Below are positions 5,422 through 40,938 of a DNA stretch of 45,771 nt, piece after piece. The DNA lies in IMG/VR virus record IMGVR_UViG_3300006114_000017, positions 1 through 45,771 of that record, one strand, 5' to 3'. The position numbers and the translations under genes were made by a program. The notes under the pieces were generated by a model. That model saw only the letters and a list, made by a program, of their open reading frames with translations, had not been told where the DNA came from and did no database searches. How positions within the stretch are numbered: position 1 is the stretch's first letter; the number at the start of each line of letters is the position of its first letter. Source of the DNA: a virus.

Positions 5422-6882
5422 TTAAAGTGTCATCAGCCAATCGTCAGACATAACGTCCTGACGAGTAACTGTTGAGGCCGTTGTCAACCGACCCATTTCT
5501 GGCAAACGATTACTTCCGCTTGCCACTTTCTGGCTCCGGGGTTGACGAGCCCCAGACTCTTCAAACATGTCGATGGAAGCTACAAAACCTGCCAGCTTAA
5601 CATCAGACATTTGTTCAAACTTTGCGATGTGCTTAGCACGATCTTCGTGTTGGATCATGCTCATCTTTTCGAGACGATCTACAACTTGGATAGCAGCGAA
5701 GATCTTTTCACGGCTAGCCTGTACAGCGGCAACAGTGCCTGCGTAAGGAGCCAGGGCAGGGTTGGTGCCATCTTCGAAGTCGATTCTGCCGTGGCTAGGG
5801 CCGTGCAGTTGGTCATCAAGGATTCCTGTCTCGGTACCATCGTTGTAGAATGGTACGTAACCAGCGTCTTCACCGTTTACTTCCTCAGGAACGAGTGCGT
5901 TGGTCTGGTGGTCAGGCTGCATTACGCGCTGACGGTCCCAAACACCAGCCTGGTCATCAAGGTCACGGACATCAACAACCTGGAGGCTCTCCTGGTTACC
6001 GTTAGAAGCCTCCTTAGGCTCCTTCTTGCCATCGCAGTTCTTGGTCTTGCAACCAGGGCCACTGCACCACTCGGTGCGAGCAGACTTCTTCTTCTTCAAG
6101 AAAGCAGGCTTGTCGTCGTCGTCTTCGTCATCATCGTCTTCGCAGTCTTCGCAGCCCTTACCCTTGCAGTTCTTGCAGGATGACTTCTTGCTCTTAGACT
6201 TAGTCTTCTTCTTAGCGGCAGTCTTCTTGTCGTCTGCATCGTCATCATCGTCGGCACCGCCATCCGAGTCGCTGTCGTCGTCTGTGGCAGCAGTCTTGAT
6301 CTCTTCCAAGAGGCCCTCAAGAGCCTTCAGGTCGACAGAAGCTTGACGGTAGTCACCGGTAACAACAAGGTCGTTCTCGATGTCAGTTACGATGCTTGCA
6401 ACGGTACCAACAACCTGGTTGAGGTCATCGTTAGTGCTAGCAAAGCGCAGAACGGTTGCAGCGTCATTCGAAGCAGTGATAAGGTTATTGAAGTCGAAGT
6501 CAACTTCGTCACGGATAGCATCGCGTACTTCACGGCTAGCCTTGTAAACCTGGTACAGACTCTCGTCAATAGGGTTAATGCTTGCGTACATTGGGCCACC
6601 TTCAGAGTAAACGGCACTCGAGCCAGGACCACCGATGATTTCGCTTCCATCGTCAACGCCAGTGAAGTCACGGACATCAAGTTGACGTGTCATTGGCTGG
6701 TTAGCAATCCAGTCAGCTACTTCTTCAGTAGGAGCAGGAGCTTGCTCAGGCCAACCGCCTGAACCAAGACTGTCGACCTGGTCGTATGGTTGCACTCTTG
6801 GAGTGGTAGTCGTTCCCGACATGCCTCTTTGTTGGAAAGCATTTTCTGCTTGCTTAATCATCTCGTCATCAAAACGGCTCAT
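5422..6882 (-). CDS. Putative scaffolding-like protein (486 aa). It has a central poly-Asp/Glu tract followed by a poly-Lys tract containing CxxC knuckles.
   Basis: SD 'GAGGAG' lies 6 nt upstream of the ATG at 6880-6882. The protein has a helical charged composition and sits directly upstream of the capsid region. Low-complexity segments read ...DDDSDSDGGADDDDDADDKKTAAKKKTKSKSKKSSCKNCKGKGCEDCEDDDDEDDDD...CSGPGCKTKNC. Confidence 0.35.
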   Translation of the reverse strand: MSRFDDEMIKQAENAFQQRGMSGTTTTPRVQPYDQVDSLGSGGWPEQAPAPTEEVADWIANQPMTRQLDVRDFTGVDDGSEIIGGPGSSAVYSEGGPMYASINPIDESLYQVYKASREVRDAIRDEVDFDFNNLITASNDAATVLRFASTNDDLNQVVGTVASIVTDIENDLVVTGDYRQASVDLKALEGLLEEIKTAATDDDSDSDGGADDDDDADDKKTAAKKKTKSKSKKSSCKNCKGKGCEDCEDDDDEDDDDKPAFLKKKKSARTEWCSGPGCKTKNCDGKKEPKEASNGNQESLQVVDVRDLDDQAGVWDRQRVMQPDHQTNALVPEEVNGEDAGYVPFYNDGTETGILDDQLHGPSHGRIDFEDGTNPALAPYAGTVAAVQASREKIFAAIQVVDRLEKMSMIQHEDRAKHIAKFEQMSDVKLAGFVASIDMFEESGARQPRSQKVASGSNRLPEMGRLTTASTVTRQDVMSDDWLMTL

Positions 6883-7592
6883 GATTGCTCCTCGCTAGTT
6901 TCTTCGTTTTTATTTTGTGCATCAATCTCTGCGGTGCCCTTGAGCAGGTCCCACATTCTTGTGGTACCATCCATGGCTGCATTCATTGAGTCATCTTGAA
7001 GAGCTCCAGGATTCATACCCTTTGCACTCTTCTTTTTAAGCTTCTTCTTATTCTTTTCGATCTTTTGTGATGCTGGACTTAGGAAATTACGCTTGATGTT
7101 TTTTCCTACCTCAGGATCTATACCCAGGAACTTGGGTCTTTTAAATCCTAAAGCTCCAGCAATTTCGTGTCCGCAGGCAGGATTTTCACAAGAACCTGAC
7201 AAATCGCCCTTTTTCATCGAGTCATTAACGAATGTACGCTGCTTACAACGAGGACATTCAGCCTTACCACTTGATGTACCGCTAAGGTCGAGACCTTCAA
7301 AGTCTGGTGAAACAATGTCTACAAAAGACAAGCTTCTGTAGGCAGCTTTAGCATTAGGGTTCTGCTCTGCAAGACTCTGCTGCTGCTTTACAACCTGTTG
7401 GATGCCCATCGCATCTTGCCATTCTTGAATAGCTTCTTGTACCCGAGGGTCAATATAGCTACAGTCTGGACAAATGCCATCTCTGTAACCATTACCTTGA
7501 CACTGCGGGCAATCACCAAGAGGTGAAATGGATACCCTGATTACTTCCAGTGCATACTTCTTAATATCGCTAGATACCTTGAGGACAGGCAT
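6879..7592 (-). CDS. Zinc-ribbon protein (CPQCQ...CPDC and CPRC...C..C motifs) with a Lys-rich C-terminal half
   Basis: The ORF-track start at 7622 is a TTG that overlaps the upstream gene. The in-frame ATG at 7592 lies immediately after the upstream stop, so I adjusted the start. Cys motifs are read from the translation. Confidence 0.4.
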   Translation of the reverse strand: MPVLKVSSDIKKYALEVIRVSISPLGDCPQCQGNGYRDGICPDCSYIDPRVQEAIQEWQDAMGIQQVVKQQQSLAEQNPNAKAAYRSLSFVDIVSPDFEGLDLSGTSSGKAECPRCKQRTFVNDSMKKGDLSGSCENPACGHEIAGALGFKRPKFLGIDPEVGKNIKRNFLSPASQKIEKNKKKLKKKSAKGMNPGALQDDSMNAAMDGTTRMWDLLKGTAEIDAQNKNEETSEEQS

Positions 7593-7594
7593 TG

Positions 7595-8254
7595 TTAGTA
7601 ACGCTTCTTTTGCAACAACCAAGCTGATTCGTCTGCTGGCTCAAATACAAAGCTCAGCTCGAAGAAGTTAGGTCTGATGCAACTTTCGAATACAAGGCTC
7701 TCAATACGCTTGCCAGCCTTGTAAACAGTAACGGTGCGTCCCTTAAGACGAGGAATGTGTGTGCAGTACTCAGCAGGCTTGCTGGCAACCTTGCCGCAGG
7801 CACTGCATTGTGTGCAATCGACGTCAGCACCCATGCTGACAGCGTTCAAGCTACCTTCCATAATGGAGTTGGCTAGCTTAGGAAAACTTTGTGCATCTAC
7901 TTCCATCAGGCAGTAAACACTTCCGTCTGTTGCACCGGAGGCGAGCTTGCTCTCACGGTAAACAGCATCGAGAATAACCCCACGAGCACGATCAGGATCT
8001 GAGTTGTTGTGCTCAACGTAGATAGGCCGACCAACAAAAGTCTTGTAGCTTTGCTTGATTTGGTCTACAGGCCAACCATCATAATTAGCGTTTACTCTGG
8101 AGGAAATGGCTCTAGAAACAGCGTAAACATAACCAGGTTCTGGCTTAAAGTTAAAATCGTCAAAGGTTACATTGTGCAGCTCAATTGGCTGACCGACGCC
8201 AGCAAGAGTCTCTCTACCTTGTAGAGCAATTGAGGGAGCACCAAATTTTATCAT
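7595..8254 (-). CDS. Hypothetical head-module protein with a CxxCxxC...CxH motif. Its position suggests a prohead protease, but this is unproven.
   Basis: ORF-track start at 8302 is a TTG. An in-frame ATG (MIKFG...) with a GAAAAGG SD-like sequence is more plausible. It sits between the portal and the scaffold, the usual protease slot. No protease motif was confirmed. Confidence 0.25.
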   Translation of the reverse strand: MIKFGAPSIALQGRETLAGVGQPIELHNVTFDDFNFKPEPGYVYAVSRAISSRVNANYDGWPVDQIKQSYKTFVGRPIYVEHNNSDPDRARGVILDAVYRESKLASGATDGSVYCLMEVDAQSFPKLANSIMEGSLNAVSMGADVDCTQCSACGKVASKPAEYCTHIPRLKGRTVTVYKAGKRIESLVFESCIRPNFFELSFVFEPADESAWLLQKKRY

Positions 8255-8317: not shown

Positions 8318-8713
8318 TTAGTGATGTAAGTTAATTTCGTCTTCGAGAGCATCAACGAGATTGTGTACTTCTTTGCTTTGTTCTTGCTCGAGTTCAAGGA
8401 TCTCATTGATCTTTACAAGCAATTCTTGGATGGTTGTAAGGCTTTCACGCAATACTTTAGCATCTGCTCGAGTCTGCTCAAACATACTGATACCAACAAC
8501 AGACTCAATGAACAGTGCCATGTAGGAAGCCCATACATTCCACCAGCCAATAACGTTGATGTCAATTGTTCCCCAAGCAGCGCAGAACAAAGTAATAAAC
8601 GTAATTGTCCCAATGAAATACCAATTACGAATAGAAAACTGAATCTTCCAAGAAATATGCTTGCCAAGACCGATGGGGTCGCCCGTAATAGGGTGTCTAA
8701 ATCTCCTGGCCAT
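8318..8713 (-). CDS. Small membrane protein: 2 predicted TM helices plus an acidic C-terminal coiled coil (131 aa)
   Basis: ATG at 8711-8713. Hydrophobic stretches FIGTITFITLFCAAWGTI and VIGWWNVWASYMALFIESVVGI are followed by a heptad-like charged tail. Confidence 0.45.
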   Translation of the reverse strand: MARRFRHPITGDPIGLGKHISWKIQFSIRNWYFIGTITFITLFCAAWGTIDINVIGWWNVWASYMALFIESVVGISMFEQTRADAKVLRESLTTIQELLVKINEILELEQEQSKEVHNLVDALEDEINLHH

Positions 8714-9087
8714 TATTCCTCGTTTTCGTGCGCTGCTCTGAGTCCTTCGTGGTAGCCAAGGTGTCTATCAATAGACTGTGTAAGCTTGTCTACGTGCTGT
8801 TCGATACCCATCAAGTGGTCAACCTTTGTCTCTAGGCGATTCCACTGGTCTTTAGGGCTCGAGCCACCGTTAGTCTTGAACTGGCTGAACAAGCGTTCAA
8901 ACTTCTCGTCTTGATCAATCTTGCTTTCAATGATTGACTTCTCAAGCTCATCCATCTTTTTGTCGCTATGGCGCACAATAAGCTTGTAGATGAAACGTGC
9001 CACAGTTGCAAAACCAGCTGCAGCAAAGAAGAAGTTAGAGATATAGCTAAACCAGGTATTGCTTGAATTAAAAAACGTGCCGAGCAT
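8713..9087 (-). CDS. Small membrane-anchored coiled-coil protein: N-terminal TM, charged helical C-terminus (124 aa)
   Basis: ATG at 9085-9087. ATGA overlap with the downstream gene. N-terminal hydrophobic segment is WFSYISNFFFAAAGFATVARFIY. Confidence 0.45.
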   Translation of the reverse strand: MLGTFFNSSNTWFSYISNFFFAAAGFATVARFIYKLIVRHSDKKMDELEKSIIESKIDQDEKFERLFSQFKTNGGSSPKDQWNRLETKVDHLMGIEQHVDKLTQSIDRHLGYHEGLRAAHENEE

Positions 9088-9275
9088 TATGCATCAATTT
9101 TTTCATAGATGCTATTTGACAAATCAAGCTTGTGGGCATTTCGGCACTTAATGCCTTCTCCCTCTTTGATAATGTCAAGCTTAACTAGGGGGCTAACTAC
9201 GTCAAGAAAGCTCTTCTTATTGAAGGCAGCTTTTGGTAGAAGACGAGGAGTCTCATTATTAAAAAGAGTGCTCAT
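9087..9275 (-). CDS. Small hypothetical protein (62 aa)
   Basis: ORF track. ATG at 9273-9275. Stop/start overlaps the downstream gene. Confidence 0.3.
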   Translation of the reverse strand: MSTLFNNETPRLLPKAAFNKKSFLDVVSPLVKLDIIKEGEGIKCRNAHKLDLSNSIYEKIDA

Positions 9276-9333: not shown

Positions 9334-11715
9334 TTATAAATCTTCCTTTGGAAGATCTGGGTGATAATCTCCGCTAATAGCAGGTGCACTGATCGCACTA
9401 TCTCCACCCATACTGTTGCCACCGGCCATATCAGCGATAGGGTTACCAGTATCTTCAGGGTTAGTAGGAGTAGGGATCATTGAGCTATCACCGTCAAGAG
9501 CATTAGCAAGATGTTGCTTAAATGCCTCTTCGTCAAACTTCTCATAGCTATTGTCAACAATAACCTTCATACCAGTAGCAAGCTTCATACGCTTACGCTT
9601 CTTCTGCTCAAATGGTACAGCGAACTTCATACGGTCACCGTATTCAACGCGACCACTAAAGTCATCGTAATCATCTTCGTCCCAACCAGATACGGATGCA
9701 GTCTTCTTCTTAGGTCCATTCTTAGGACCCTTCTTAGAAGGCTTAGGTTGGCTCTTACGCTGTTCGTAGCTTTCTTCTGGACGTTGACGTTGCTGAGCAG
9801 CTTCTTGGTTGATGCTTGGGTATACTTGTGCACCAGCAGCAGCGTCACTGTTGCCTGCGGCATTACCAGTCATATTGGGTGCGCTAGGTGGAGCTACAAG
9901 ACCAGCCATAGCACCTGGGGCAAGCTGTGCACCAAGCGATGGGTCTTCCATCATCGCTAGGTAGGCCTGGTATTCCTGTACATATTCTGGTGGTACTGGC
10001 AATTGCAGAACCATCAAACGGTTGAACAGTTCCTTCTTGAATTGCTGTTCAGCAACAACCGTCTTAATCTTCTCTTCCTTACGTGCATCAATCTCGTCAT
10101 CGAAGTCGATTGGGATATTGACAGCAAGTGTGCTGAGGGAGATGGGGAAGCCTGAGGCGCTGAGCTGCTGGAGGAACCCACGCTCAACTGTCTCATCTCT
10201 GAGGTTCATCGAACGGAATCTTACCTCTGGAATGGCCAGCTTGGGTCGTTCTTCAACATATTCAGCACCAGTCTCTTCATCAACCATGAGAACAGTTTCC
10301 ATAACAGGTACCATTTGGCCACCCACGTTACGCATCTCATAGTGACCTTGTCTTTCTGCTACTGGCTCCATACGGGAACGGATAAACTTCTCGATCTTGT
10401 GCTGGTAAGTACTAAGCATCTGAGTAATAAGCTCTCGGTTCAAAGCACCTGAAGCATAGGTACCACCCTGGCCACCCTGAATAAGGTCAGCACCGATACC
10501 GAATACACCCATGAGGTTTGTCTGTACACGCATGAAATCTGTGTCAAGACGAGGCATGCTTTCACGTCCAAAGGCGTTCTGGATCTGCAAACCGTGGTGG
10601 TATGTCATCAGACGGAAGTCTGAGTTAATAGCCATGGCCAAGTCGTCACGCAAAGACTGGAGCTCCATAGCATCTGGGATCCATGGACCGTCCTGGTCTA
10701 CGTCAGGAAGTCCCAAGGTAGCAAGGATAAGGGGAGAATACAGACGGTCAGCAATAGCGTCTTGAGCGGAGTTGAGGGACTCCTCAAGCATAAGAGTGCG
10801 AAAGGCACGAAGAAGAATAGGAGTACCATGTTCGCTCCACGGGTTGGTAGAGAACTTGATCTGCTTCATGATTACATCAGAAACAGGGATTTCCTTATCT
10901 TGTCTAGCCCAAGCCACAACGTCTGGATAGAGCTGCATAAGCATTGCATACTCTTGTGGAGGATCACGACGTTCGATAAGACGCTTGATCTCTTCAGGTA
11001 CCTTAACGTGGAACTGGTATGTTCTAAGAGCACGGTTCTTAGCGACGATAACGTCGTTAGGGTTGATGATCTCATCTTCTTCCCATGCACCAATACCATC
11101 GTGCCAAGAACCCATGGCGAACACTTCACCAACGGTCCAGTGCTCACGACCAAGGTCATAGAGGAAGTCTTGGTAATTAAGACCATCAAAGAACAACTCA
11201 TTATAGAAGTCAGAGATGCGCTTGTCGGGGTGTACTAGCTCGATGTCCAGCAAGGGGAAACGAGTATAGATGTCAATAAGACCAGGTACCAAGTGGTGAG
11301 TGGTGTAAAGAAGGCGAGCCCAGTCACGTATCTTACGAGTCTGCTCATCTGGGTCTTCCATGTTGAACCACCACGTGCGCTCACGCCAGTATTCAAATGG
11401 GTCGTGTAGCTTAGGAAGTGCCCACTGGGCATCTGATCCTGTAGCAGCAGCAGTTCTGCGGTTAGACGTTCTAGCCATGCCGTTCTCAGCAAGGAAGTCA
11501 GAACCTAACTTATTAAGACGTTGTCTACCCTCTGGAGGTCCACCCATTGCAGTAGCCATTGGACCAATGTCATTAAGCATTGATCCTGGCGTAGAAGCCC
11601 TATTGAGCATGTCACGTGCAGCGACACGCCCAGCAATAGGGTTCTTAGGAAGGGTGATACCAGATGTCTTCATGCGGCTAAATTCCGCAGAAGCACTCCA
11701 GTCGTTGGTAGCCAT
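9334..11715 (-). CDS. Putative portal protein (~793 aa)
   Basis: Large protein at the head of the morphogenesis block, with a long acidic/Lys-rich C-terminal tail. The first codon reported by the ORF tool is TTG at 11718. The ATG at 11715 was taken as the start. The call rests on size, position and composition. Confidence 0.55.
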   Translation of the reverse strand: MATNDWSASAEFSRMKTSGITLPKNPIAGRVAARDMLNRASTPGSMLNDIGPMATAMGGPPEGRQRLNKLGSDFLAENGMARTSNRRTAAATGSDAQWALPKLHDPFEYWRERTWWFNMEDPDEQTRKIRDWARLLYTTHHLVPGLIDIYTRFPLLDIELVHPDKRISDFYNELFFDGLNYQDFLYDLGREHWTVGEVFAMGSWHDGIGAWEEDEIINPNDVIVAKNRALRTYQFHVKVPEEIKRLIERRDPPQEYAMLMQLYPDVVAWARQDKEIPVSDVIMKQIKFSTNPWSEHGTPILLRAFRTLMLEESLNSAQDAIADRLYSPLILATLGLPDVDQDGPWIPDAMELQSLRDDLAMAINSDFRLMTYHHGLQIQNAFGRESMPRLDTDFMRVQTNLMGVFGIGADLIQGGQGGTYASGALNRELITQMLSTYQHKIEKFIRSRMEPVAERQGHYEMRNVGGQMVPVMETVLMVDEETGAEYVEERPKLAIPEVRFRSMNLRDETVERGFLQQLSASGFPISLSTLAVNIPIDFDDEIDARKEEKIKTVVAEQQFKKELFNRLMVLQLPVPPEYVQEYQAYLAMMEDPSLGAQLAPGAMAGLVAPPSAPNMTGNAAGNSDAAAGAQVYPSINQEAAQQRQRPEESYEQRKSQPKPSKKGPKNGPKKKTASVSGWDEDDYDDFSGRVEYGDRMKFAVPFEQKKRKRMKLATGMKVIVDNSYEKFDEEAFKQHLANALDGDSSMIPTPTNPEDTGNPIADMAGGNSMGGDSAISAPAISGDYHPDLPKEDL

Positions 11716-11727
11716 CAATTAGTCTTT

Positions 11728-11910
11728 CTATAGCCCGCATCCGCAAGACTCAATGCCAGGGATTGCTTGGCAACCACATGCATAGTTGACGCTTCGGGTA
11801 GACTTAATGATACCACCAGATTTGTTCTGAATGATAGGGTTTCCGTTAAAATCAAAGTTGGCACCAACGCGGCGGATAGATGCCTGTCTAATGTTTTGCT
11901 GTCTTTCCAT
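11728..11910 (-). CDS. Small Cys-containing protein (60 aa; CGC...CGCG)
   Basis: Fills the 200-nt gap between the 1054-aa gene and the portal. An 'AAGGATAA' SD-like sequence precedes the ATG. Confidence 0.3.
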   Translation of the reverse strand: MERQQNIRQASIRRVGANFDFNGNPIIQNKSGGIIKSTRSVNYACGCQAIPGIESCGCGL

Positions 11911-17164: not shown

Positions 17165-17653
17165 CTACTTGCTAGGCGGATTCGGCGCACCTGTGTTATC
17201 AGCGTCATATTCCTCTGATTTATTAACACGGCTTGCTTCTTCTACAGCAGGCGATTTCTTCATTTTTGTTAAGCCATTTGGCTCTGGGTGAGCAAAATAA
17301 CGCATTTTCGATGCAAAAGCCCAAACATCATCATCTTCTTGAACGCTGGCAGTCATCACAGGCTGTTCAGTGTGTGCAGATAAATTATCTGAGTATGGAC
17401 TACGAAGATCTTTGGTAAGCAAATTCTGCAATGAGAAGTCATAGTTATCTTGCTTAGCACCACCTGAGTTCATCAGGCAATATCCGTGTGAGTACAGTGG
17501 GCGCCTACCATCGACTGCAGTACCGTCCACAAGTACCTTACCCAAACCATCAGTGAATGATGGCATATCACAGAAACGGCAAGGTACTCCTGCAGGAGCG
17601 TCTTTTGGCTCTACGTAGCTTCTTTTACGGTTCATGTTATCCCTCGTCTTCAT
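17165..17653 (-). CDS. Hypothetical protein (162 aa). An alternative start gives MNRKRSYVEPKD..., which matches the recurrent N-terminal motif described in the findings.
   Basis: ATG at 17651-17653. A second in-frame ATG 6 codons later starts right after the upstream gene's stop codon. Confidence 0.45.
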   Translation of the reverse strand: MKTRDNMNRKRSYVEPKDAPAGVPCRFCDMPSFTDGLGKVLVDGTAVDGRRPLYSHGYCLMNSGGAKQDNYDFSLQNLLTKDLRSPYSDNLSAHTEQPVMTASVQEDDDVWAFASKMRYFAHPEPNGLTKMKKSPAVEEASRVNKSEEYDADNTGAPNPPSK

Positions 17654-20042
17654 CTTCTACATCAAACCCAGCAGCTCTCATACCACCATTGATGTGACCT
17701 TCGTTGTGGATGCCATCCGCAACATTCTCTTGCTCTTCGTGGCTCATGTTACGGCCATTCTTCTTAAAGAATTGCTTGTTGACCGTGTCAACCATGCCAT
17801 CAACGTCTCTATCTGAAATCTCTGGTGCTGCGCCACGGTTGAGTCGACCAGGCATTTGTGCAGACATTGGTGCGTCAAAGCTAGGACTTTCAACAGACTT
17901 CTTGTAAGGAGCATCAGCAATGATAAATCTCTGCTTGTCCTTCTCGCTTACATTGCCTGATGGGATACTGCGTATTTCTGGTGGAATCAGGTTGTAAGGG
18001 TGGTGCTCTGGTACTCCATACGTGTCTTCAAACTCGTGACCAAGACTTCTAAGTCGTCGTCTAGCTTCATTGTTAGGCGTAGTGAGCATGTGGTGCTTGA
18101 TACCCTCAGTGCTCAATCCTGTTGGCTTAACGTGCTTAACGATAACCTGGACCTTTGATTCTGGGTTGCTAACGTAATTGCGAGTACCATCTGGGTTTTT
18201 GCTGTCGCTTGTTAATAGATCTTTCTTTTGCATAGTTGTCTGGACATCGCCCACAACTTGAACGTGTTGTGAGTTAAGACGGTCCATTCTTGCAACCTGG
18301 CTAATGTGACAAGCGAAAGGAACTGCAGTTGTTCTTCTTGCGGTAGATCTTTCACCAACGATTGGTTGAATGCTATCAAGCGCATCAGAGATGTGGTTCT
18401 GCAAAGGTCCTCGGACAGCTTTGTCACGCTGACTACTGAATGTACTGTTTACAGTTGCGCCCTTTGAGAACATGGTCTTACGACGACCGCCGTATTGCCC
18501 CTTAAGCTGTTCTCTGAGGGCATCACGCTCATCTTTAGCAGTGGTTCCCCAGTGAACACCTTCGACGTATTGCCCATCGTGGCTAACGTTTGTGACAACA
18601 CCAAATACGTGCTTGCCTTGGAAACCACCACTGCTAGCAGACTCATCACGCTTGAGTCTTTGTCTGTTCGGGCTCTTTGTAAAGTTCTTTTGTTCACGGA
18701 TATTATTAGCAGCTTCTACCTGGTTTGTCCAGTCTTCGTAGTCCTGCTTAAATTGCTCATCGTGAGCACCATTCTTGTACTTAGAATCACCAGGAGTAGG
18801 CATGCCTGGCACGTGCACGGTTGCACCCCATTGAGGTGCCTTATACATCGTGTTAGGGACAGCCTTCTCACCAGGTGCTGTCTCGTATGCAGAATCTTGA
18901 GGCTGCTCAGCATGTAATGCGGCATTTGGCTCATTCGTATCCCAACCAAGGTGCCAGATAGGAGTACCACGTCTGATCTCTTGTCTAGGGTGACCACCCA
19001 TAATCTCCAAGGCAGGAGCGATGTTATCCTTTTCACCAACCACTGCTCTATAGGCAGCAAAAGCCATGGTATTTGGGCTTGACTTGCTACCCGCGAACGC
19101 TACGTGGCGTGGGATCTTAGGGTCTGTGCACTTTTCGCAACCATTAGTACAGTCGCAGTTATCACGAACAGAATCAACATACTTGCCACGTTCAATGTCA
19201 GCAGCACCCATTGGGCCGCCTTCACCGGTCTCAAAGTCACCTTGTCCTAAGTGGTGATCACAACCTGATTGACAATGCCAATCCTTGCCTTCATCGAATG
19301 TTTGTTCGTGTCTACAATTAAAGTCGGTGCATTCACTCTCAGGGTGGCAAGCCTTCTCTACGATGTTGCCATTCTTGTCTTTTTTATCTTTTTTGTGATT
19401 AAGAACTGCCTTATTAACAGGACAATTAGTATCGCACATTCCAGCCAAGCAGTGAGTGTTGTGCCAGTTAACAGCATCATTGTGGCGCCTAGTCTCTTCG
19501 TTGACATTTGTCATTCTATCGAAGGTGCCAGCATGTTCTCTTGGCTCATGATAACCTAAGTTGCCACAAGTAATGCATTCAATCTGATCGTGAGATCTAT
19601 CTGCTGGAGCCTCTGGGAAGCCGCCGTGCATCTTGCCCTTACAAGTAGGGCATGGGAATGCTGAGATTGCTGTAAGCACAGGAATCTTCATAGCTGCTTT
19701 GATGTAATTACGGTTGCTCAAATGGTCGCTTGGTACAACTGCAGTCTCCTGCAACTTTCTTGACTCTGGTGAGTTCTCAACGAACTTAACCTTCTGGCCC
19801 TTTGGGACTCTGATGCTCTTTTTGTCCTCAACGGTTCCTGGAGTGTGATACGTAAGGTCGCCAAACTCTTCTTGCTTCTTAGTCTTCTTCTTTTCCTTTT
19901 CCTTGCGCTGTCTAGCAACAGGCTCAGGCTCATAGGAAGAGAAGCCAGAATCACCGAGCTGTTCAGGGGTCAATGCACTGTATTCACCATACTCATCCTC
20001 GGGGAAAGAAGCAGTCTTTGAGTTGAAGATTGGTCTATTCAT
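17637..20042 (-). CDS. Large hydrophilic Cys/His-rich protein (801 aa) with multiple CxxC and CxxxxC clusters. Candidate internal (ejected) virion or zinc-binding protein.
   Basis: ATG at 20040-20042. Motifs include CPTCKGK, CITCGN, HCLAGMCDTNC, CHPESECTDFNCRH and CDCTNGCEKC. Confidence 0.5.
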   Translation of the reverse strand: MNRPIFNSKTASFPEDEYGEYSALTPEQLGDSGFSSYEPEPVARQRKEKEKKKTKKQEEFGDLTYHTPGTVEDKKSIRVPKGQKVKFVENSPESRKLQETAVVPSDHLSNRNYIKAAMKIPVLTAISAFPCPTCKGKMHGGFPEAPADRSHDQIECITCGNLGYHEPREHAGTFDRMTNVNEETRRHNDAVNWHNTHCLAGMCDTNCPVNKAVLNHKKDKKDKNGNIVEKACHPESECTDFNCRHEQTFDEGKDWHCQSGCDHHLGQGDFETGEGGPMGAADIERGKYVDSVRDNCDCTNGCEKCTDPKIPRHVAFAGSKSSPNTMAFAAYRAVVGEKDNIAPALEIMGGHPRQEIRRGTPIWHLGWDTNEPNAALHAEQPQDSAYETAPGEKAVPNTMYKAPQWGATVHVPGMPTPGDSKYKNGAHDEQFKQDYEDWTNQVEAANNIREQKNFTKSPNRQRLKRDESASSGGFQGKHVFGVVTNVSHDGQYVEGVHWGTTAKDERDALREQLKGQYGGRRKTMFSKGATVNSTFSSQRDKAVRGPLQNHISDALDSIQPIVGERSTARRTTAVPFACHISQVARMDRLNSQHVQVVGDVQTTMQKKDLLTSDSKNPDGTRNYVSNPESKVQVIVKHVKPTGLSTEGIKHHMLTTPNNEARRRLRSLGHEFEDTYGVPEHHPYNLIPPEIRSIPSGNVSEKDKQRFIIADAPYKKSVESPSFDAPMSAQMPGRLNRGAAPEISDRDVDGMVDTVNKQFFKKNGRNMSHEEQENVADGIHNEGHINGGMRAAGFDVEDEDEG

Positions 20043-22491
20043 TTGCTGGCTCTTCTACCTTCGCTGGGCTAATGGACCAGCTATCCGTTTGGTGTGTTGG
20101 GAACTTAGAAACAGATTGCTTAAAAGTTTCTTTTGCTGCGGGGCCACTGAAACGTTCAATCTGTTCAGCTAACTTATTTGATGCCTTTGTAGCTTCTTCC
20201 ATGTTTCCATGAGAAATGTGCTTGTACAATTCATCCTTAGTTTGATTGTAACGTCCAGTTGATGCATCTGGCAATGAGTTAACAGTCTTTTCTACAGAAG
20301 ATACACCTTCACGCATGTGCTCCGGGAATGCTTCAGGGTCGTGCTGGAACGTGGGCTGAGCAGCTCTCATCTTACGCTCGACTTTGTTGCTCATGTATGG
20401 AGGCAGCAAGTCAGGGAATGTACCGAACTCTTTAGACACTTCCTTAACAAGAGCAAGGTCTTTTGATGGTGCTGTGTAATGAGCATTCGGTGCTTTCCAG
20501 TGCTGCTCACTTTGACGAACAATCTGGTTCATACGCTCTTCAGGAATGTCAATACCATTCTTCATCATTCCGCTAACAAGGCGCTGATCAAGTGGTGCAT
20601 CGCTCTTCATGTCTTCTACACTTGAACCAAGCTTGCCCTTGTATGTTTCCATAGTGGTCTGGCCAGTTGATGGGTCAATGTAATTAGGGAAGTGATCAAA
20701 ACTGTGAGGGTTATCTGCTGTTCCTAGGCCACCGTATTGATTAGCAAACACTGCTTGTACGTGTCTCTTAGGCAAGTAGAACCCTGGTTTGCCACCCTTT
20801 GTCCTAGCACCATGGATGATGCGAGTGCCTGGGGGCAATGTGTTTGGGTCTGCGGCGCTTCTGATGTGACATGGGCATGGCAAGTTAGTAGGTTTGCCAT
20901 CCTTATCGAACATCTCCTGGTCGTCATGCTCGCAGTTCTTGCAATCATCACGTCTCAAGTGTGAATAGTGGTCAACACCAGTATTACCAACACCAGTACC
21001 AGAAAGTGGCATGTTGATCTCTGCGTTGCCATAGAAATCATCTGCGTATCCGTGCGTAGGAGGCTTCTTCTTCTTAATTACCTTTGGACCATCTACTGTC
21101 TTATCGATCAGAGTACCATCGCAGTGTGGGCAAACGTTATCAGGTGTCAAGGCAATGCTTGAGTCATCTGAGTGGCAGTTGTCGCAACTGATAGCGGAAG
21201 TATCATGTCCAGTAGCGTTGCAAGCAACACATGGGGTTGACTTTGCACCATCTTCGGTGAACTTATCACCCTTGCAAATCTTGCAAAGAGGTGCATCTTC
21301 TGGATTAACGTACTTTTGCTTACCGCCACCAAGGCCAATAGTGTGAGGTACCAAGATGGGGTTACCAGCACTGTCCGTGCTTTCCTTCATGTTAACATTG
21401 CCCTTGAAACAGCAACGGCAACCTACGATGTTATCATTCTGGTTGGAATTGATTTTACCATCACCACATGCGCACGAAGGGTGCTCCTCATGTGTAGTAG
21501 TTTCCCAGTCTCCAACAGTCTGCTGACCAGCTTTAAGCGTCTCATATCTGGTGTAACGCTTTACATGATCTCCGCCAGGCGTAAAGTGGATCATAGGCAT
21601 ATAGGTGCCTTCTGGGCCACCTTCATCGAATGCATGAGCTAGCTCTACACTCTTTTGACCCTTGCCGTTATCTACTTCACGATATGCTTTAAGTAGCGGG
21701 TTCTGCAGGAGTCTTTCCTTGTAGCCGGGTGTTGTGCCATGAACCATCTGTGGCAGCTGCTCTGGTTCCTTGCCTTTAGGACCGTGTGGGACTTCACAAC
21801 CGTTCTCTGAGTCTCCGCCACAAACACAAAGGCTTCCACCTCTTTTGTATGGACCGGTGCCGAGAGCCATTGACATAAGGTGGTCGATTGCATCACCCTT
21901 GTGTGTAGCAATCGTATTTGCTACCGAATCAGGGTCTAGACTTTCAGTTTCTGCTCCAACACCACGTGCTCTTTGCTTCCTACCTTGCGCATTGGCACGT
22001 AATAGCTTATCAGTAGCAGTGCTAATGTTTTCGCCTTTTGCTCTGCGTCTGAAACCAATCATGCCATGCGGAGCAAGCTCGAGAAGCTTGTCAGCGTTTT
22101 CGTGTTGTGAGTACTGTGATCTAGGAATTCTAATCATCTTGTATTCACCACTGCGCATCAAGTCTTGCTTGAGCTCACGGGCGTAGTCACCACCACGTTC
22201 ATTTTCACCTGAATACTTAGGCAAGTCTTTGTGGATGAATTCGTAACGCTTAGGTTCTGCAGTTGGGTTGTTAATGGGGTGGTAGTCGTTGTCACCAAAT
22301 TGGATAGCAAAAGGGGCGTCATTGAATTCTTCAGCCTGGGTACGTCGCTTTTCGACAGACTTGCGCTTCTTTCTTGCTTCACTCTCAGCCTTTTGATATT
22401 CTCTCTGCTTCTTGTTTACAAAGATGCGATCATCGTTACTGGCGGAAGTCTTAACGTATTCTATGTTCTTATTAAAAACAAACTTATTCAT
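20035..22491 (-). CDS. Large hydrophilic Cys-rich protein (818 aa) with multiple CxxC clusters. Possibly a paralogue or partner of the 801-aa protein.
   Basis: ATG at 22489-22491. Motifs include CVCGGDSENGC, CACGDG..GCRCC, CKICKG...CVACN...CDNCH...CPHCDG, CKNCEH and CPCH. Confidence 0.5.
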   Translation of the reverse strand: MNKFVFNKNIEYVKTSASNDDRIFVNKKQREYQKAESEARKKRKSVEKRRTQAEEFNDAPFAIQFGDNDYHPINNPTAEPKRYEFIHKDLPKYSGENERGGDYARELKQDLMRSGEYKMIRIPRSQYSQHENADKLLELAPHGMIGFRRRAKGENISTATDKLLRANAQGRKQRARGVGAETESLDPDSVANTIATHKGDAIDHLMSMALGTGPYKRGGSLCVCGGDSENGCEVPHGPKGKEPEQLPQMVHGTTPGYKERLLQNPLLKAYREVDNGKGQKSVELAHAFDEGGPEGTYMPMIHFTPGGDHVKRYTRYETLKAGQQTVGDWETTTHEEHPSCACGDGKINSNQNDNIVGCRCCFKGNVNMKESTDSAGNPILVPHTIGLGGGKQKYVNPEDAPLCKICKGDKFTEDGAKSTPCVACNATGHDTSAISCDNCHSDDSSIALTPDNVCPHCDGTLIDKTVDGPKVIKKKKPPTHGYADDFYGNAEINMPLSGTGVGNTGVDHYSHLRRDDCKNCEHDDQEMFDKDGKPTNLPCPCHIRSAADPNTLPPGTRIIHGARTKGGKPGFYLPKRHVQAVFANQYGGLGTADNPHSFDHFPNYIDPSTGQTTMETYKGKLGSSVEDMKSDAPLDQRLVSGMMKNGIDIPEERMNQIVRQSEQHWKAPNAHYTAPSKDLALVKEVSKEFGTFPDLLPPYMSNKVERKMRAAQPTFQHDPEAFPEHMREGVSSVEKTVNSLPDASTGRYNQTKDELYKHISHGNMEEATKASNKLAEQIERFSGPAAKETFKQSVSKFPTHQTDSWSISPAKVEEPANE

Positions 22492-22493: not shown

Positions 22494-23276
22494 TTAACTT
22501 TCGTCTTCCTCGAGGTCATTAACATCGAACATTCTTTGTACCTTTGCCCCAGGTATATTAACTGTTGGTGTATTAGATGGTTGGTTACTTGGTGGCGTAG
22601 CTTCAGGAACTGTTTGAACCTTACGCTCTCTTCTCTTTGGCGTAGGTGTTTCATCGACTGGTGTCGTTGATTCCTCAGAGTTATAACCCTTAACCTTTGA
22701 CTTCGGCATCTTAATATCATGCTTTGGTGCTTCATCATCGGCAGATAAATAAGTAACACCTGTAGTTACTGTCTGATATGGTGTTGGTGTTGTAACTGGA
22801 GCATCGCTGTCTTGTATACCACGAGTTCTAGAACGTTCTTTGTTCCTAACAACTCGTCTCTTCGTTTCGCTCTTCAAGCTACTTACAGCACGCTCAGTCT
22901 TGTTAATGTTCCTATTTTCAATGCGTTGATCTGTCTTACCAGATTCGCCTGGGTTCAGACCAGATGGACGCTGGTTAGCAACAGCATGTTCCATCTCAAC
23001 GATTTCATTACCAACAAAAAGAGCATGGTTTGCGCATGTGTGAACCTGTGTCACTCCAGATGGAGTGTAAATGAATTCACCATCTTTGTTCTCTGCTACG
23101 CCACCACGCTCGTAGCTCTTAGCACCTTTTGCTCTAGCTTTCAAAGCTTTCCTAGAAGAACGCTGGATGCTATCGCACGGGCCCAGAGAATCATATTTCT
23201 TCGCTTGTTCTGGAGCTAAGCTATCTCTAAGATCAGCTATGCAGCAACGCTTTCCCATATTAACATGCGTATCCAT
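22494..23276 (-). CDS. Hypothetical basic protein (260 aa)
   Basis: ORF track. ATG at 23274-23276. Confidence 0.45.
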   Translation of the reverse strand: MDTHVNMGKRCCIADLRDSLAPEQAKKYDSLGPCDSIQRSSRKALKARAKGAKSYERGGVAENKDGEFIYTPSGVTQVHTCANHALFVGNEIVEMEHAVANQRPSGLNPGESGKTDQRIENRNINKTERAVSSLKSETKRRVVRNKERSRTRGIQDSDAPVTTPTPYQTVTTGVTYLSADDEAPKHDIKMPKSKVKGYNSEESTTPVDETPTPKRRERKVQTVPEATPPSNQPSNTPTVNIPGAKVQRMFDVNDLEEDES

Positions 23277-24505
23277 TATTGATCTCCCTTGCAGCGGTAA
23301 GACTCAGCAATAAATTTGTCAACACGGTCAAATTTATTGCCAGGGTAGCTATCTGGAAATGGAGCGGTTTTGATTTTAGCGATGCCACTCTTGTAATCAT
23401 CACTTTGCTTAATCTTGGAGATGTTTTCTGGTGTTTCAAAGCCTCTTCTTTTTTCACAACCACAAAAGACGTGTGACTCTTGCTTAGTAGGCGTTGAGGG
23501 TGTAGACGCAGGAAGCAATGCTTGCTCTTCTCTTTTTTGCCTTATTTGCTTTATTTCGTCGAAAGTGTCTTTGAAGGCACCTGCGTAACCAGTACCTTCT
23601 TGCTCTCCGCGTCTTACAAGCATCTTATTGATAGATTCAATGTTTTGACGACCCTTCATTGCAAGCACTCGGTCTTGACCCTGCACACCGTGTTCGGGGA
23701 TAGCAATGGTAGTCTTACGTGATGGTTTGCTAGCAGGCACTCTAGAAGTTCCAGAAGACGCGCTTGAGTCATCGTCTTCAAAGTCTTCTAACTCTGGTAC
23801 GTGTTCTTCTGGGGTTTCATCAGTGGGAGCAGACTTTGTCTTATTGAACTTCTTATTGACAGGTGGCAATGCCTGGATAGGAATACCCTTATCTTCTTCC
23901 TGATCACCTTCATGTTCTTCTTCGTGAGAAACATTCTCTGGGATTTCTTCTTCAGCTTCTTCAGCTTCGTGAGGAGATTCTTCTTCTGGGTGTCCAGGAA
24001 GCGTTTCAGGATCGTAAGTGAACTTACCTACTTGTTCTTCTTCAGCTTTCTCTTCATCATTGGGTTCTGTATCAACTTGTTCTGGCTCTTTGTCTTCAGT
24101 TGCATCAGACCATTCTTCCTGCTTGCCTTCGTAGTCATCAGGATCGTAATCGTCGCTAGAAGCGTTGAAAAGCATTTTGAATGTGGCTGTCTTGCCCAAA
24201 GATGGCAATGCAATAATATTTGCTTTTTTCAAGAACTCAATAGATTCAGGAGAATATTTGATCGTGCCAGGCGTTTGGCCCTGCTTATTCAAAATGTCTT
24301 TAAGAGCGTCTTCTTCGCTGGTATAAAGCTTTTTAGGCGTTGAAACTGACGTAGGAGCAGTAGGGTGCTCTGTTCTCTTATATTTTCTAGGCCCTGGTTC
24401 TTTTTGCCCTGATTGTGTGTTATCTTTTCTCAAATACCACTCAGGGTCTCCATTACTAATGGCACCCGTACCCGAAGAGTACTTAGAATTAAATGTTTTA
24501 GCCAT
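23276..24505 (-). CDS. Hypothetical highly acidic protein (409 aa). N-terminus is MAKTFNSKYSSG...
   Basis: ATG at 24503-24505. Glu/Asp-rich central region. Confidence 0.45.
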   Translation of the reverse strand: MAKTFNSKYSSGTGAISNGDPEWYLRKDNTQSGQKEPGPRKYKRTEHPTAPTSVSTPKKLYTSEEDALKDILNKQGQTPGTIKYSPESIEFLKKANIIALPSLGKTATFKMLFNASSDDYDPDDYEGKQEEWSDATEDKEPEQVDTEPNDEEKAEEEQVGKFTYDPETLPGHPEEESPHEAEEAEEEIPENVSHEEEHEGDQEEDKGIPIQALPPVNKKFNKTKSAPTDETPEEHVPELEDFEDDDSSASSGTSRVPASKPSRKTTIAIPEHGVQGQDRVLAMKGRQNIESINKMLVRRGEQEGTGYAGAFKDTFDEIKQIRQKREEQALLPASTPSTPTKQESHVFCGCEKRRGFETPENISKIKQSDDYKSGIAKIKTAPFPDSYPGNKFDRVDKFIAESYRCKGDQ

Positions 24506-24535: not shown

Positions 24536-25141
24536 TTACTTGTTGTATTGATCTGGGTAGTTCTTGTGAAAAGGATTGTGCTTCATAGGGCTCGTAAACT
24601 TGTCGTGCTCTTGAGTGGGCTCAGGGTTGTTAAACTTCTTCCTGGAGTCATCAATGCCCTTGTCAACTCTGCTACCAATGCAATTGTGAAGGCCACTAGC
24701 ACCACACTTCTTACAACGATCATCCTCACGTGGCTCATAGTGTTTGTGGTAATCGTTAGGGCCAGACTTAGGATTGTACTGTGGAGGAGTCTTCTTATTA
24801 GCATTGTTGGGGTCATCACCATTACCACCAGCAAATGTGGTTTCAGCAGCAATCTTGCAGAATTGGCAAGATGCGTGACGGAGCTGCCACTCTTCGTGTA
24901 CAGCGCGTACGAGTTTAGCCTTGGAGTCACTGACGTTGGCGAGTCTGCGGTGTGCAGTGCGCTCGATGTCCTCTTCGACCATTTGCATGCGGAAAGCAAG
25001 CTCCTTATCGCTGTGAGCCATGAACAAGAAATCACCTGTGTTGGTAAGCAGCTCGTGCTTAGCAGTGACAAGCTTCTTACCAGCAAGCTTGGCATCAAAT
25101 GCCATATTTACTGAGTCATCGTAATCGAACATCGAGGTCAT
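24536..25141 (-). CDS. Hypothetical protein with CxxC...CxxC motifs (201 aa)
   Basis: ORF track. ATG at 25139-25141. Confidence 0.45.
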   Translation of the reverse strand: MTSMFDYDDSVNMAFDAKLAGKKLVTAKHELLTNTGDFLFMAHSDKELAFRMQMVEEDIERTAHRRLANVSDSKAKLVRAVHEEWQLRHASCQFCKIAAETTFAGGNGDDPNNANKKTPPQYNPKSGPNDYHKHYEPREDDRCKKCGASGLHNCIGSRVDKGIDDSRKKFNNPEPTQEHDKFTSPMKHNPFHKNYPDQYNK

Positions 25142-36791: not shown

Positions 36792-37442
36792 CTATTGCGC
36801 GTTACGGCTATGATTACATTCATCGTGTGTCATATGTTCTGTGCAAAAACTAGGGCCCAACTCTTCTGAAAGCAACTCGGCTAGCTTCTTGCTAGCAGTA
36901 GTACCACTATTCAATGGGTTAGCACCATTCAGCTCACCGGGTTGAAGGTCATTGGGAGCAGTAGCTTGGCCAATAGGACTTTGGTTAGTGGCAGAAAAAT
37001 CTTGTGATTTTCCCGAAGGAGGAGCTGGGTTAGGACCGTTGTTGGCAAAGTTCTGTGAGCTTGCTGCCTGTGGGACAATCAGATCGGGAGCACCTTCAAA
37101 ATAAGCAAGTGCGTTAACGATCTTTGATGCACCCTTGCGGTGTCTCCAAGAGTAAACTGAATCAGCTGCCTTATCAAGTGCATCTTCTTCACTTTCCTTT
37201 TGACCAGGCTCGTATGGGTGACACTTGGCTCTGTCTCCAGGACCCTTCCAGCCAGGCTTAGTGCCTTCTGCAGTTTCAATAGTGCATTCTCTCAGCTCGT
37301 TCTTAATATTGGCAGCAGTGATGCTAAAACCAAGATATGAGCTAAGAATTACGCGGCGGCAACCATTGCAATAGATTTCTGGGCCAGCCTTGCTAGATGT
37401 TCTAACAAGCTCACCCTTTCTGCATATAAAACATTTTTCCAT
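36792..37442 (-). CDS. Hypothetical protein with an N-terminal zinc ribbon (MEKCFICRKG...CNGCRR). C-terminal half is rich in Gly/Asn/Pro/Ser.
   Basis: The ORF-track start at 37559 overlaps the upstream gene by 116 nt. The in-frame ATG at 37442 follows the upstream stop directly. Confidence 0.4.
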   Translation of the reverse strand: MEKCFICRKGELVRTSSKAGPEIYCNGCRRVILSSYLGFSITAANIKNELRECTIETAEGTKPGWKGPGDRAKCHPYEPGQKESEEDALDKAADSVYSWRHRKGASKIVNALAYFEGAPDLIVPQAASSQNFANNGPNPAPPSGKSQDFSATNQSPIGQATAPNDLQPGELNGANPLNSGTTASKKLAELLSEELGPSFCTEHMTHDECNHSRNAQ

Positions 37443-40594: not shown

Positions 40595-40938
40595 TGACTA
40601 AAAGTCAAACCAGTTTTGCCTGCAAGGAACGAGTGAGTGTTGCAATATGGCCTTGGCACTGAAGAATCAGACCAATGCATGTATTTTGCTTCGTACTTCT
40701 TACCTTGGCAGTCGCCATGAGCACATGCAGCCATACCCTTGCGGTCTACGTAAGGTGCTTTCCTAGTTTTCTTAGGAGGCTCTGGCTGTGGGTTCTCTGC
40801 TAAGTACTTCTGCGTGTTCTCGCAATCGGTAGTGTCTTTGCACCTACCGCTGCTAACGATTGTGTGGGTGCCATCATCTGATGCACCACAGAGCTGACAT
40901 TGGTCAGGACGAGCAGCGTAACGTTCTGACCAAGACAT
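40570..40938 (-). CDS. Small Cys-rich protein (122 aa). N-terminus MSWSERYAAR...
   Basis: ORF track. Motifs CQLCG, CKDTTDC and CAHGDC. Confidence 0.4.
   Translation of the reverse strand: MSWSERYAARPDQCQLCGASDDGTHTIVSSGRCKDTTDCENTQKYLAENPQPEPPKKTRKAPYVDRKGMAACAHGDCQGKKYEAKYMHWSDSSVPRPYCNTHSFLAGKTGLTFSQWKDVYGR

What the first reader, a model, noticed from the sequence alone, without database searches (positions are those of the whole stretch)
17637..22491. Two tandem ~800-aa hydrophilic Cys/His-rich proteins, and a proteome-wide excess of CxxC zinc-ribbon motifs
Adjacent genes of 801 and 818 aa contain many CxxC, CxxxxC and CxxH clusters in otherwise hydrophilic sequence with no transmembrane segments. 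At least ten other proteins in the window carry CxxC pairs, including 5422..6882, 6879..7592, 7595..8254, 11728..11910, 24536..25141, 36792..37442, 37444..38724, 40570..40938, 42003..42395 and 43690..44355. This density is unusual for a bacteriophage and more typical of archaeal or eukaryotic viruses. The bacterial-type tRNAs and SD sites rule those out. The large pair sits in the virion block near the acidic 409-aa protein, a position compatible with ejected internal/core proteins. The scaffold-like and head-module proteins also carry Zn knuckles.
Basis: seen in the sequence. Interest (0 to 1): 0.55.

Follow-up and report, generated by a model that had tools for sequence, protein, structure and literature searches.

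The report
Zinc-ribbon proteins upstream of phage portal
Two large, very water-loving proteins of an uncultured ~132-kb phage carry conserved zinc-binding cysteine clusters and share a short N-terminal peptide with neighbouring head genes, so they are most likely capsid-interior proteins of a family that no database describes, but this has not been shown.

Summary
Both ORFs are real: 818 aa (A, 20035-22491) and 801 aa (B, 17637-20042), minus strand, GRAVY about -0.9, no TM segment. Their cysteines are the best-conserved columns in their families. A has about five predicted Cys4/Cys-His sites, including a DnaJ-type four-CxxC module. B has seven invariant Cys plus a lineage-specific Cys-rich insertion.

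A and B are not paralogs. Neither has a Pfam, PHROG, cultured-phage or PDB/BFVD structural relative.

The "proteome-wide" excess is really local. CxxC motifs concentrate in a six-gene hydrophilic cassette and in the protease and scaffold-like genes (about 2% Cys). Portal, capsid and other shell proteins are nearly Cys-free (0.16%).

New findings:
- The cassette always sits just upstream of the portal in relatives.
- One relative fuses A, B and the next gene into a single 1530-aa protein.
- A, B, the 409-aa protein and two small post-portal proteins share an N-terminal (K/R)-F-N-S-K-type peptide, which is kept at the fusion junctions.

Best reading (about 0.45): prohead-interior proteins recruited by a capsid-targeting peptide, as with phage P1 DarB or the T4 internal proteins. 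A T7/N4-type ejection channel is unlikely. Virion presence and zinc binding are untested.

The parts
20035..22491 (-). Protein A, 818 aa. Hydrophilic, with multiple predicted zinc sites. It founds a family with 41 representative clusters in metagenomes.
   Evidence: AF2 mean pLDDT 76.3. No Pfam or PHROG hit.
22465..22491 (-). A residues 1-9, MNKFVFNKN. This is the N-terminal (K/R)-F-x-F-x-K / F-N-x-K peptide. M1, F4 and F6 are nearly invariant in the family, although AF2 predicts the segment as disordered.
21742..21828 (-). A residues 222-250. CxC plus His/Cys site (C222, C224, C232/H236).
21409..21474 (-). A residues 340-361. CxC...CxxC site (C340, C342, C358, C361).
21121..21285 (-). A residues 403-457. 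Four CxxC repeats forming a DnaJ cysteine-rich-domain-like module, predicted to hold two zinc ions. The first two repeats are absent in P0004.
   Evidence: Family profile against Ydj1 (1nlt) E=7.9e-5 and DNAJA2 E=1e-3. 8 of 32 family members hit PF00684, best E=3.1e-5..
20869..20943 (-). A residues 517-541. CxxC...CxC site. C517, C520 and C539 are invariant; C541 is kept in 91%.
17637..20042 (-). Protein B, 801 aa. Hydrophilic. Its start overlaps the stop of A by 8 nt.
20010..20042 (-). B residues 1-11, MNRPIFNSKTA. N-terminal peptide; F6, N7, K9 and A11 are invariant in six family members.
19413..19655 (-). B residues 130-210. Conserved zinc domain PCxxCxGxxxGG...CxxCxNxG...H...C...C...C (C131, C134, C156, C159, H194, C198, C203, C207).
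   Evidence: Matched inside fusion protein P0043.
19128..19349 (-). B residues 232-305. Cys-rich insertion (10 Cys) found only in close relatives.
17165..17653 (-). p162. A CRFC-containing hydrophilic protein, overlapping the end of B. It is fused to A+B in a relative.
   Evidence: BLASTP against P0043 residues 1411-1499, E=1.3e-9..
22494..23276 (-). p260. Hydrophilic cassette member (GRAVY -1.01) with an acidic C-terminus.
23276..24505 (-). p409. Acidic cassette member (pI 4.8, GRAVY -1.21) with N-terminal MAKTFNSK. Homologs in relatives carry up to 6 CxxC.
24536..25141 (-). p201. First cassette gene after the tRNA cluster. Two CxxC motifs.
9087..9275 (-). p62. Small protein just after the portal, with N-terminal MSTLFNNE.
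8713..9087 (-). p124. Small protein after the portal, with N-terminal MLGTFFNSS.
9334..11718 (-). Portal protein, 0 Cys. It anchors the conserved synteny.
   Evidence: phrog_2833 E=8e-165. 39% identity to Bixzunavirus portals.
5422..8254 (-). Head protease (7595-8254), p247 (6879-7622) and the scaffold-position p486 (5422-6882). Together 2.2% Cys and 7 CxxC, including CPQCQGNGY and CKNCKGKGC.

Best explanation
A and B are two unrelated members of a conserved cassette of six very hydrophilic, zinc-ribbon-bearing proteins (p201, p409, p260, A, B, p162). The cassette opens the portal and head-assembly gene block of an uncultured ~132-kb phage whose head genes resemble those of Bixzunavirus mycobacteriophages.

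Proposed mechanism:
1. The proteins are made late, together with portal, protease and scaffold.
2. A short N-terminal peptide, (K/R)-F-N-S-K or (K/R)-F-x-F-x-K, recruits them into the assembling prohead core next to the portal.
3. Small Cys4 or Cys3His zinc modules (DnaJ cysteine-rich type in A) hold otherwise low-hydrophobicity chains in compact, independently folding units.

Shown: the genes, the motif conservation, the synteny, the fusion and the shared peptide. Inferred: zinc binding, capsid targeting and any role after assembly. It is open whether the proteins are degraded in the prohead (like T4 gp22/gp67/gp68) or stay in the virion and are delivered to the host (like P1 DarB or T4 IPs/Alt).
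For: - Cysteines are the most conserved columns in both families.
- The DnaJ cysteine-rich-domain relationship is supported by a profile match to solved structures and by Pfam hits in 8 of 32 members.
- The same gene order, [400-690 aa acidic]-[~250 aa]-A-B-[~150 aa]-...-portal, occurs in relatives that are only 23-35% identical.
- In L008, A, B and p162 form one 1530-aa ORF at the same position. This is a Rosetta-stone link between the three proteins.
- An N-terminal F-N motif occurs in 7 of 57 window proteins where about 1 is expected (binomial p=4e-5). Five of the seven flank the portal. The motif is conserved in relatives, encoded by varying codons, and retained at both fusion junctions as RRFNPR and RRRFSSKR.
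- The two small motif-bearing proteins sit where T4 has its core proteins gp67 and gp68. The order portal, small proteins, protease, scaffold, capsid protein parallels T4 20-67-68-21-22-23 (T4 gene order from my own knowledge; core composition from PMC9958956).
- In phage P1, the 250-kDa internal head protein DarB is encoded immediately upstream of the portal and protease genes. It is targeted by its N-terminal 30 residues, with residues 6-10 critical (PMC9024508).
- T4 internal proteins share only a capsid-targeting sequence (PMC3012670).
- Cys content is bimodal. Shell proteins have 0.16%. The cassette has 1.96% and the protease/scaffold group 2.2%. This groups the cassette with the interior or transient assembly proteins.
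Against: - There is no direct evidence that the proteins are in proheads or virions. The phage is uncultured and no proteome exists.
- No sequence or fold similarity to any known internal, core or ejection protein was found.
- The N-terminal motif is short and was defined after seeing the data. Two of its carriers (42468-43583 and 43690-44355) lie 20 kb away among non-structural genes.
- AF2 predicts A as largely folded (pLDDT 76), not as an obviously extended cargo protein.
- Zinc-thiolate sites would be unusual in a particle that persists in oxic water, and known ejection proteins avoid Cys (PMC11445570).
- Position in a late operon does not prove structural function.
Confidence: 0.45

Rival explanations
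1. Non-virion late proteins. On this view A, B and their neighbours are intracellular assembly chaperones or holdases (DnaJ cysteine-rich-type zinc fingers bind unfolded clients), or nucleic-acid-binding zinc-ribbon factors. They would act in the infected cell and never enter the capsid.
For: - DnaJ cysteine-rich-type module in A.
- Cys-rich zinc sites fit a reducing cytoplasm, and the confirmed shell proteins are Cys-free.
- Basic N-terminal helices (A residues 27-58, net +9 over residues 1-50) could bind nucleic acid.
- Two carriers of the N-terminal motif are in the non-structural region.
Against: - No J domain or any other chaperone or enzyme domain is present.
- The tight, translationally coupled placement directly upstream of the portal is conserved over deep divergence.
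- A shared N-terminal peptide retained at the fusion junctions is better explained as an addressing or processing signal.
- The proteins are large (about 90 kDa each), and six such genes is more than an accessory chaperone would normally need.
Confidence: 0.3
2. Ejected channel-forming internal virion proteins of the T7 gp14/15/16 or N4 gp51/52 type. They would leave the capsid and build a trans-envelope conduit.
For: Large size, hydrophilicity, position in the virion block and acidic neighbours.
Against: - No PHROG, Pfam or tblastn similarity to T7/N4 internal proteins.
- No fold match in PDB or BFVD.
- No TM or amphipathic membrane segment.
- The head module is Bixzunavirus-like, not T7/N4-like.
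- Schitoviridae ejection proteins have about 0.001-0.006% Cys against 0.865% proteome-wide (PMC11445570). A and B have 2.1-2.4%.
Confidence: 0.08
3. Tail, baseplate or fibre components that use metal sites for trimer stabilisation.
For: - A horizontally acquired cyanomyovirus 'virion structural/fiber' protein (11920-15084) is inserted in the same block.
- The weak top Foldseek PDB hits include T4 gp27-gp5 (E about 1.3).
Against: - Those fold hits are not significant (E>1, TM<0.13).
- AF2 shows no beta-helix or fibre repeats.
- The cassette lies upstream of the portal rather than with tail genes, and its composition is unlike fibres.
- The other virion proteins in this phage avoid Cys.
Confidence: 0.07
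4. Chance ORFs, or cysteine patterns with no function.
For: None beyond the lack of annotation.
Against: - Full-length homologs exist with E=0 to 1e-100.
- The Cys columns are invariant.
- Shuffle tests exclude chance.
- AF2 is confident for A.
Confidence: 0.01

Closest known systems
Phage P1 Dar system: DarB and Ulx, encoded just upstream of portal Prt and protease Pro (PMC9024508)
   Same: Very large proteins encoded immediately upstream of the portal and protease genes. A short N-terminal signal is needed for capsid packaging (DarB residues ~6-10 critical, first 30 sufficient). Several unrelated proteins are co-packaged.
   Different: No sequence or fold similarity. DarB carries helicase and methyltransferase domains, whereas A and B have no enzymatic domain. 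P1 Dar proteins show no shared N-terminal consensus, whereas these proteins do. No zinc-ribbon theme is reported for Dar.
T4 prohead core and internal proteins: IPI-III, Alt, gp67, gp68, gp22 (PMC3012670, PMC9958956)
   Same: Otherwise unrelated proteins share only an N-terminal capsid-targeting sequence. Small core proteins are encoded between portal and protease. The protease trims or degrades core components.
   Different: T4 IPs are small (8-20 kDa) and the motif sequence is unrelated (T4 MKTYQEFIAE, from my own knowledge). There is no homology. Processing has not been shown here.
DnaJ/Hsp40 cysteine-rich zinc-finger domain (Pfam PF00684; PDB 1nlt, 1exk)
   Same: Four CxxC(xGxG) repeats spaced 12-15 residues apart. 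There is a profile-level sequence match.
   Different: No J domain, G/F region or Hsp40 C-terminal domains. The glycine pattern is degenerate in the window protein. Here the module is one of about five metal sites in an 818-aa protein of unknown fold.
Ejection and inner-body proteins of giant phages SPN3US and phiKZ (PMC7411985, PMC5694885)
   Same: Many large, poorly annotated head-interior proteins that are processed by the prohead protease.
   Different: No homology. The genome is about 132 kb, not over 200 kb. The cleavage motif here is unknown.
Large hydrophilic proteins upstream of the portal in actinophages: BananaFence gp87 (1237 aa) and Phrappuccino gp44 (779 aa)
   Same: Same position relative to a homologous portal. 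Similar hydrophilicity (gp87 GRAVY -0.86).
   Different: No detectable homology. They are Cys-poor and their function is also unknown.

Membership tests
DnaJ cysteine-rich zinc-finger domain (PF00684) | Four CxxCxGxG repeats that form two zinc centres | tested here: met
   A has CxxC at 403, 421, 436 and 454. The Gly pattern is partial: CKICKG, CVACNATG, CPHCDG.
DnaJ cysteine-rich zinc-finger domain (PF00684) | Significant match to the family model | tested here: inconclusive
   The window protein alone has no Pfam hit at E<=0.01. 8 of 32 family members hit PF00684, best E=3.1e-5. The family profile hits Ydj1 (1nlt) at E=7.9e-5.
Hsp40/DnaJ co-chaperones | J domain with HPD motif | tested here: not met
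   No DnaJ J-domain hit in A, B or any of the 32 family members.
T4/P1-type capsid-targeted internal head proteins | Short N-terminal peptide shared by, or required in, otherwise unrelated proteins encoded with head genes | tested here: met
   The F-N motif occurs in 7 of 57 proteins (p=4e-5). Five of them flank the portal. It is conserved in relatives and at the fusion junctions.
T4/P1-type capsid-targeted internal head proteins | Physical presence in proheads or virions, and processing by the prohead protease | not testable with these tools
   The phage is uncultured and no proteome is available.
T4/P1-type capsid-targeted internal head proteins | Sequence homology to IPI-III, Alt or Dar proteins | tested here: not met
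   No PHROG, Pfam or tblastn hit.
T7 gp14/15/16 and N4 gp51/52 ejection proteins | Homology or fold similarity; gene position between tail-tube and fibre genes of a podovirus | tested here: not met
   The head module is Bixzunavirus-like.
T7 gp14/15/16 and N4 gp51/52 ejection proteins | Cysteine suppression (N4-like) | tested here: not met
   A and B have 2.1-2.4% Cys, against about 0.001% in gp71 homologs (PMC11445570).
Virion or multisubunit RNA polymerase subunits with zinc ribbons | Double-psi beta-barrel or polymerase fold and catalytic motifs | tested here: not met

The most novel reading that the evidence does not exclude
This uncultured phage lineage has a previously undescribed capsid-cargo system. 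Several large proteins studded with zinc ribbons (a single polyprotein in some members) are addressed to the prohead by a portable (K/R)-F-N-S-K peptide. Zinc modules replace a hydrophobic core, so the proteins can be packed densely with DNA and perhaps delivered to the host.
Probability: 0.3. Interest if true: 0.65.

Novelty: new variant of a known kind. Interest (0 to 1): 0.45.

Why it matters
If the reading is right, it defines a new protein family set and a new, easily recognised capsid-targeting peptide in an abundant but uncultured phage group. It would also be the first example of zinc-ribbon-based architecture in head-interior proteins. The peptide could be tested directly as a packaging tag. 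The split between Cys-free shell proteins and Cys-rich interior proteins may be a simple sequence rule for separating exposed from internal head proteins in uncharacterised phages. If the rival is right, the cassette is a new class of zinc-dependent late assembly factors. Either way, about 8 kb of conserved 'dark' phage genes receives its first structured hypothesis.

Tried and rejected
Searches that found nothing:
- Pfam and PHROG scans of A, B and seven neighbours. Only a marginal phrog_33040 match for the 226-aa neighbour (E=0.0077) came up.
- PHROG scan of all 32 A-family members and Pfam scan of six B-family members.
- megablast and tblastn against 50,697 phage records.
- Profile search of the B family against PDB sequences.
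- Scan of GTDB genomes for a prophage or host hint.

Homology tests that were negative:
- A against B: not paralogs.
- A and B against the positionally equivalent actinophage protein Phrappuccino gp44. BananaFence gp87 was compared only by composition.

Structure work:
- Foldseek against BFVD and PDB gave nothing at E<=1e-3.
- The afdb50 library was unavailable.
- AF2 of B with a 4-sequence alignment gave pLDDT 35.5, which is unusable.

Other:
- The promoter and terminator scan of 8-26 kb gave no more sites than shuffles and no break inside the cassette.
- A virion RNA polymerase reading was considered because of the zinc ribbons. It was rejected for lack of any polymerase fold or motif.
- A nucleotide-level translation-start element was considered as the source of the N-terminal motif. 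It was rejected because codons differ between genes and the motif survives inside fused ORFs.
Full report
**Context.** All genes in the window lie on the minus strand. The window belongs to an uncultured phage: the identical A protein occurs on a 131,916-bp contig, and no cultured phage matches at the DNA level.

The head module is recognisable:
- capsid protein, 3827-4837 (phrog_2522);
- cement protein, 4862-5389 (PF23968);
- prohead protease, 7595-8254;
- portal, 9334-11718 (phrog_2833).

The portal is 39% identical to portals of Bixzunavirus (cluster C) mycobacteriophages and related Gordonia and Rhodococcus phages. A tRNA cluster lies at 25231-25576. It separates a sugar-nucleotide, metabolic and ferritin gene region from the late block.

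**The observation.** A (20035-22491, 818 aa) and B (17637-20042, 801 aa) are intact ORFs. Both are strongly hydrophilic (GRAVY -0.91 and -0.95) and have no TM-like segment. A has 20 Cys and B has 17. Apart from C578 in B, the Cys are confined to residues 222-541 (A) and 131-305 (B). A has 6 CxxC motifs and B has 3, far above shuffle expectation.

The motifs are under selection. An HMM search of 1.84 billion representative proteins found 41 A-family clusters. In a 32-sequence alignment with 23% mean identity, the invariant columns are almost only cysteines. For B, the indexed searches gave only three close homologs. However, the gene downstream of each A homolog is a diverged B: E=2e-41 at 24% identity in L004, with further examples in L006 and L012. 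Seven Cys and one His are invariant across these sequences. Residues 232-305 of B are a lineage-specific Cys-rich insertion.

**What the motifs are.** The A-family profile matches the DnaJ cysteine-rich zinc-finger domain of Ydj1, DNAJA2 and E. coli DnaJ. Eight of 32 members hit Pfam PF00684. The four CxxC repeats at 403-457 therefore form a DnaJ-CR-like two-zinc module. No J domain is present.

Three further Cys/His sites in A bring the predicted total to about five:
- residues 222-236;
- residues 340-361;
- residues 517-541.

B has a PCxxCxG...CxxCxNxG ribbon followed by an H-C-C-C site. Zinc binding is inferred from sequence only.

**The 'proteome-wide' claim.**
- Overall Cys is 1.2%.
- CxxC density is about twice that of a T4 region and a Bixzunavirus region analysed in the same way.
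- The signal is local. Eleven shell or virion-type proteins have 0.16% Cys and no CxxC. The protease, p247 and p486 have 2.2% Cys. The six-gene cassette has 1.96% Cys. The non-structural half has 1.34% Cys and 1.4 CxxC per 1000 aa.
- One of the ten listed proteins (11728-11910) has no CxxC.

**New evidence on function.**
1. A and B belong to a cassette of six consecutive, tightly packed or overlapping genes with GRAVY between -0.86 and -1.21 (p201, p409, p260, A, B, p162). Its order and its position upstream of the portal are conserved in relatives that are only 23-35% identical.
2. In L008 a single 1530-aa ORF (P0043) occupies the place of A, B and p162. It matches A at its N-terminus, the B zinc domain at 887-974 and p162 at 1411-1499 (E=1.3e-9). 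P0045 looks like an A+B fusion, on weaker evidence.
3. A, B and p409, together with the two small proteins just after the portal (p62, p124), start with a common peptide: MNKFVFNKN, MNRPIFNSK, MAKTFNSK, MSTLFNNE and MLGTFFNSS.
   - Seven of 57 window proteins carry F-N in their first eight residues, where about one is expected (p=4e-5). T4 has 2 of 81 and the Bixzunavirus locus 0 of 29.
   - The peptide is nearly universal in the A family and invariant in B.
   - It is encoded by different codons in different genes.
   - It persists at both junctions of the fused protein, as RRFNPR and RRRFSSKR.
   - It therefore behaves as a protein-level short linear motif.
4. Zinc-ribbon modules come and go among cassette members. 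The p409 homologs have 0 to 6 CxxC, and the A and B insertions vary. This suggests a generic structural role, not a catalytic one.

**Interpretation.** The closest working analogues are capsid-targeted internal head proteins.
- In phage P1, the 250-kDa DarB is encoded directly upstream of the portal and protease. It needs its N-terminal residues, about 6-10, for packaging (PMC9024508).
- In T4, unrelated internal proteins share only a capsid-targeting sequence, and the small core proteins gp67 and gp68 are part of the core (PMC3012670, PMC9958956). From my own knowledge of the T4 map, gp67 and gp68 lie between the portal and protease genes, which is where p62 and p124 lie here.

I therefore favour a prohead-interior role, with the shared peptide acting as an addressing or processing signal (confidence about 0.45). 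The Cys dichotomy groups A and B with the protease and scaffold-like proteins, not with exposed virion proteins. Known N4-type ejection proteins are essentially Cys-free (PMC11445570). A T7/N4-like trans-envelope ejection role is therefore unlikely. It remains open whether A and B survive into the mature virion. A non-virion late assembly or nucleic-acid-binding role is the main rival (about 0.3).

**Verdict.** The families are new in sequence and fold. Interest is moderate.

Noticed in passing
window 11920-15084 (-): A 1054-aa protein is 38-39% identical over about 96% of its length to the 'virion structural/fiber' protein of T4-like cyanomyoviruses such as S-PM2 and S-RSM4 (phrog_5838). The gene is missing at this position in relatives L002, L008 and L012, which have a 63-aa ORF or nothing there. 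This suggests horizontal acquisition into the head block.
   Followed up: partly
L008 10001-14593 (P0043); also P0045: A single 1530-aa ORF fuses the A, B and p162 homologs in gene order, with the N-terminal motif kept at both junctions. P0045 (1200 aa) looks like an A+B fusion and ends in ...RKFNSRV.
   Followed up: yes
window 40570-41584 (-), also 37444-38727: Three consecutive small genes begin with a second shared peptide, W-x-x-R-Y-A-A-E/R: MSNWSKRYAAES, ..NWKRRYAAED and MSWSERYAARPD. A fourth starts MMRYATQ. This is another recurrent N-terminal motif of unknown meaning.
   Followed up: no
window 35530-36051 (-); L004 1-276; L008 3456-4088: A phage-encoded ferritin/Dps-like protein (PF00210, E=7e-20) is conserved in relatives. 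This is notable next to so many predicted metal-binding proteins.
   Followed up: partly
window 41581-42003 and 42468-43583 (-): Two strongly His-rich proteins (12.1% and 7.8% His) have no family match. The second also starts with MFNSRE, the head-cassette type N-terminal motif.
   Followed up: no
L006 10850-14365: The portal gene of a relative is 1171 aa and carries an intein (PF14890) with a LAGLIDADG homing endonuclease.
   Followed up: no
window 25585-33000 (-): A cluster of sugar-nucleotide and metabolic genes: cupin, cytidylyltransferase, epimerase, PfkB kinase, zinc alcohol dehydrogenase and an enoyl-CoA hydratase-like gene. It is partly conserved in L002. Possible roles are DNA or surface-glycan modification.
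   Followed up: no
window 11728-11910 (-): A 60-aa protein immediately upstream of the portal ends in CGC...CGCGL (four Cys). It is conserved in L002 (61 aa). The equivalent small gene in Bixzunavirus (gp88) has two CxxC motifs.
   Followed up: no
window 3827-11718 (-): The gene order portal, two small proteins, p131, protease, p247, acidic p486, cement protein, capsid protein mirrors T4 20-67-68-21-22-23. In Bixzunavirus the protease domain is instead the N-terminus of a 1277-aa protein (phrog_2774).
   Followed up: partly
window 25231-25576 and 31761-31835 (-): Five tRNA genes (Tyr, Gln, Ser-GCT, Asn, Asp). A tRNA-Ser(GCT) also precedes the equivalent block in Bixzunavirus BananaFence.
   Followed up: no
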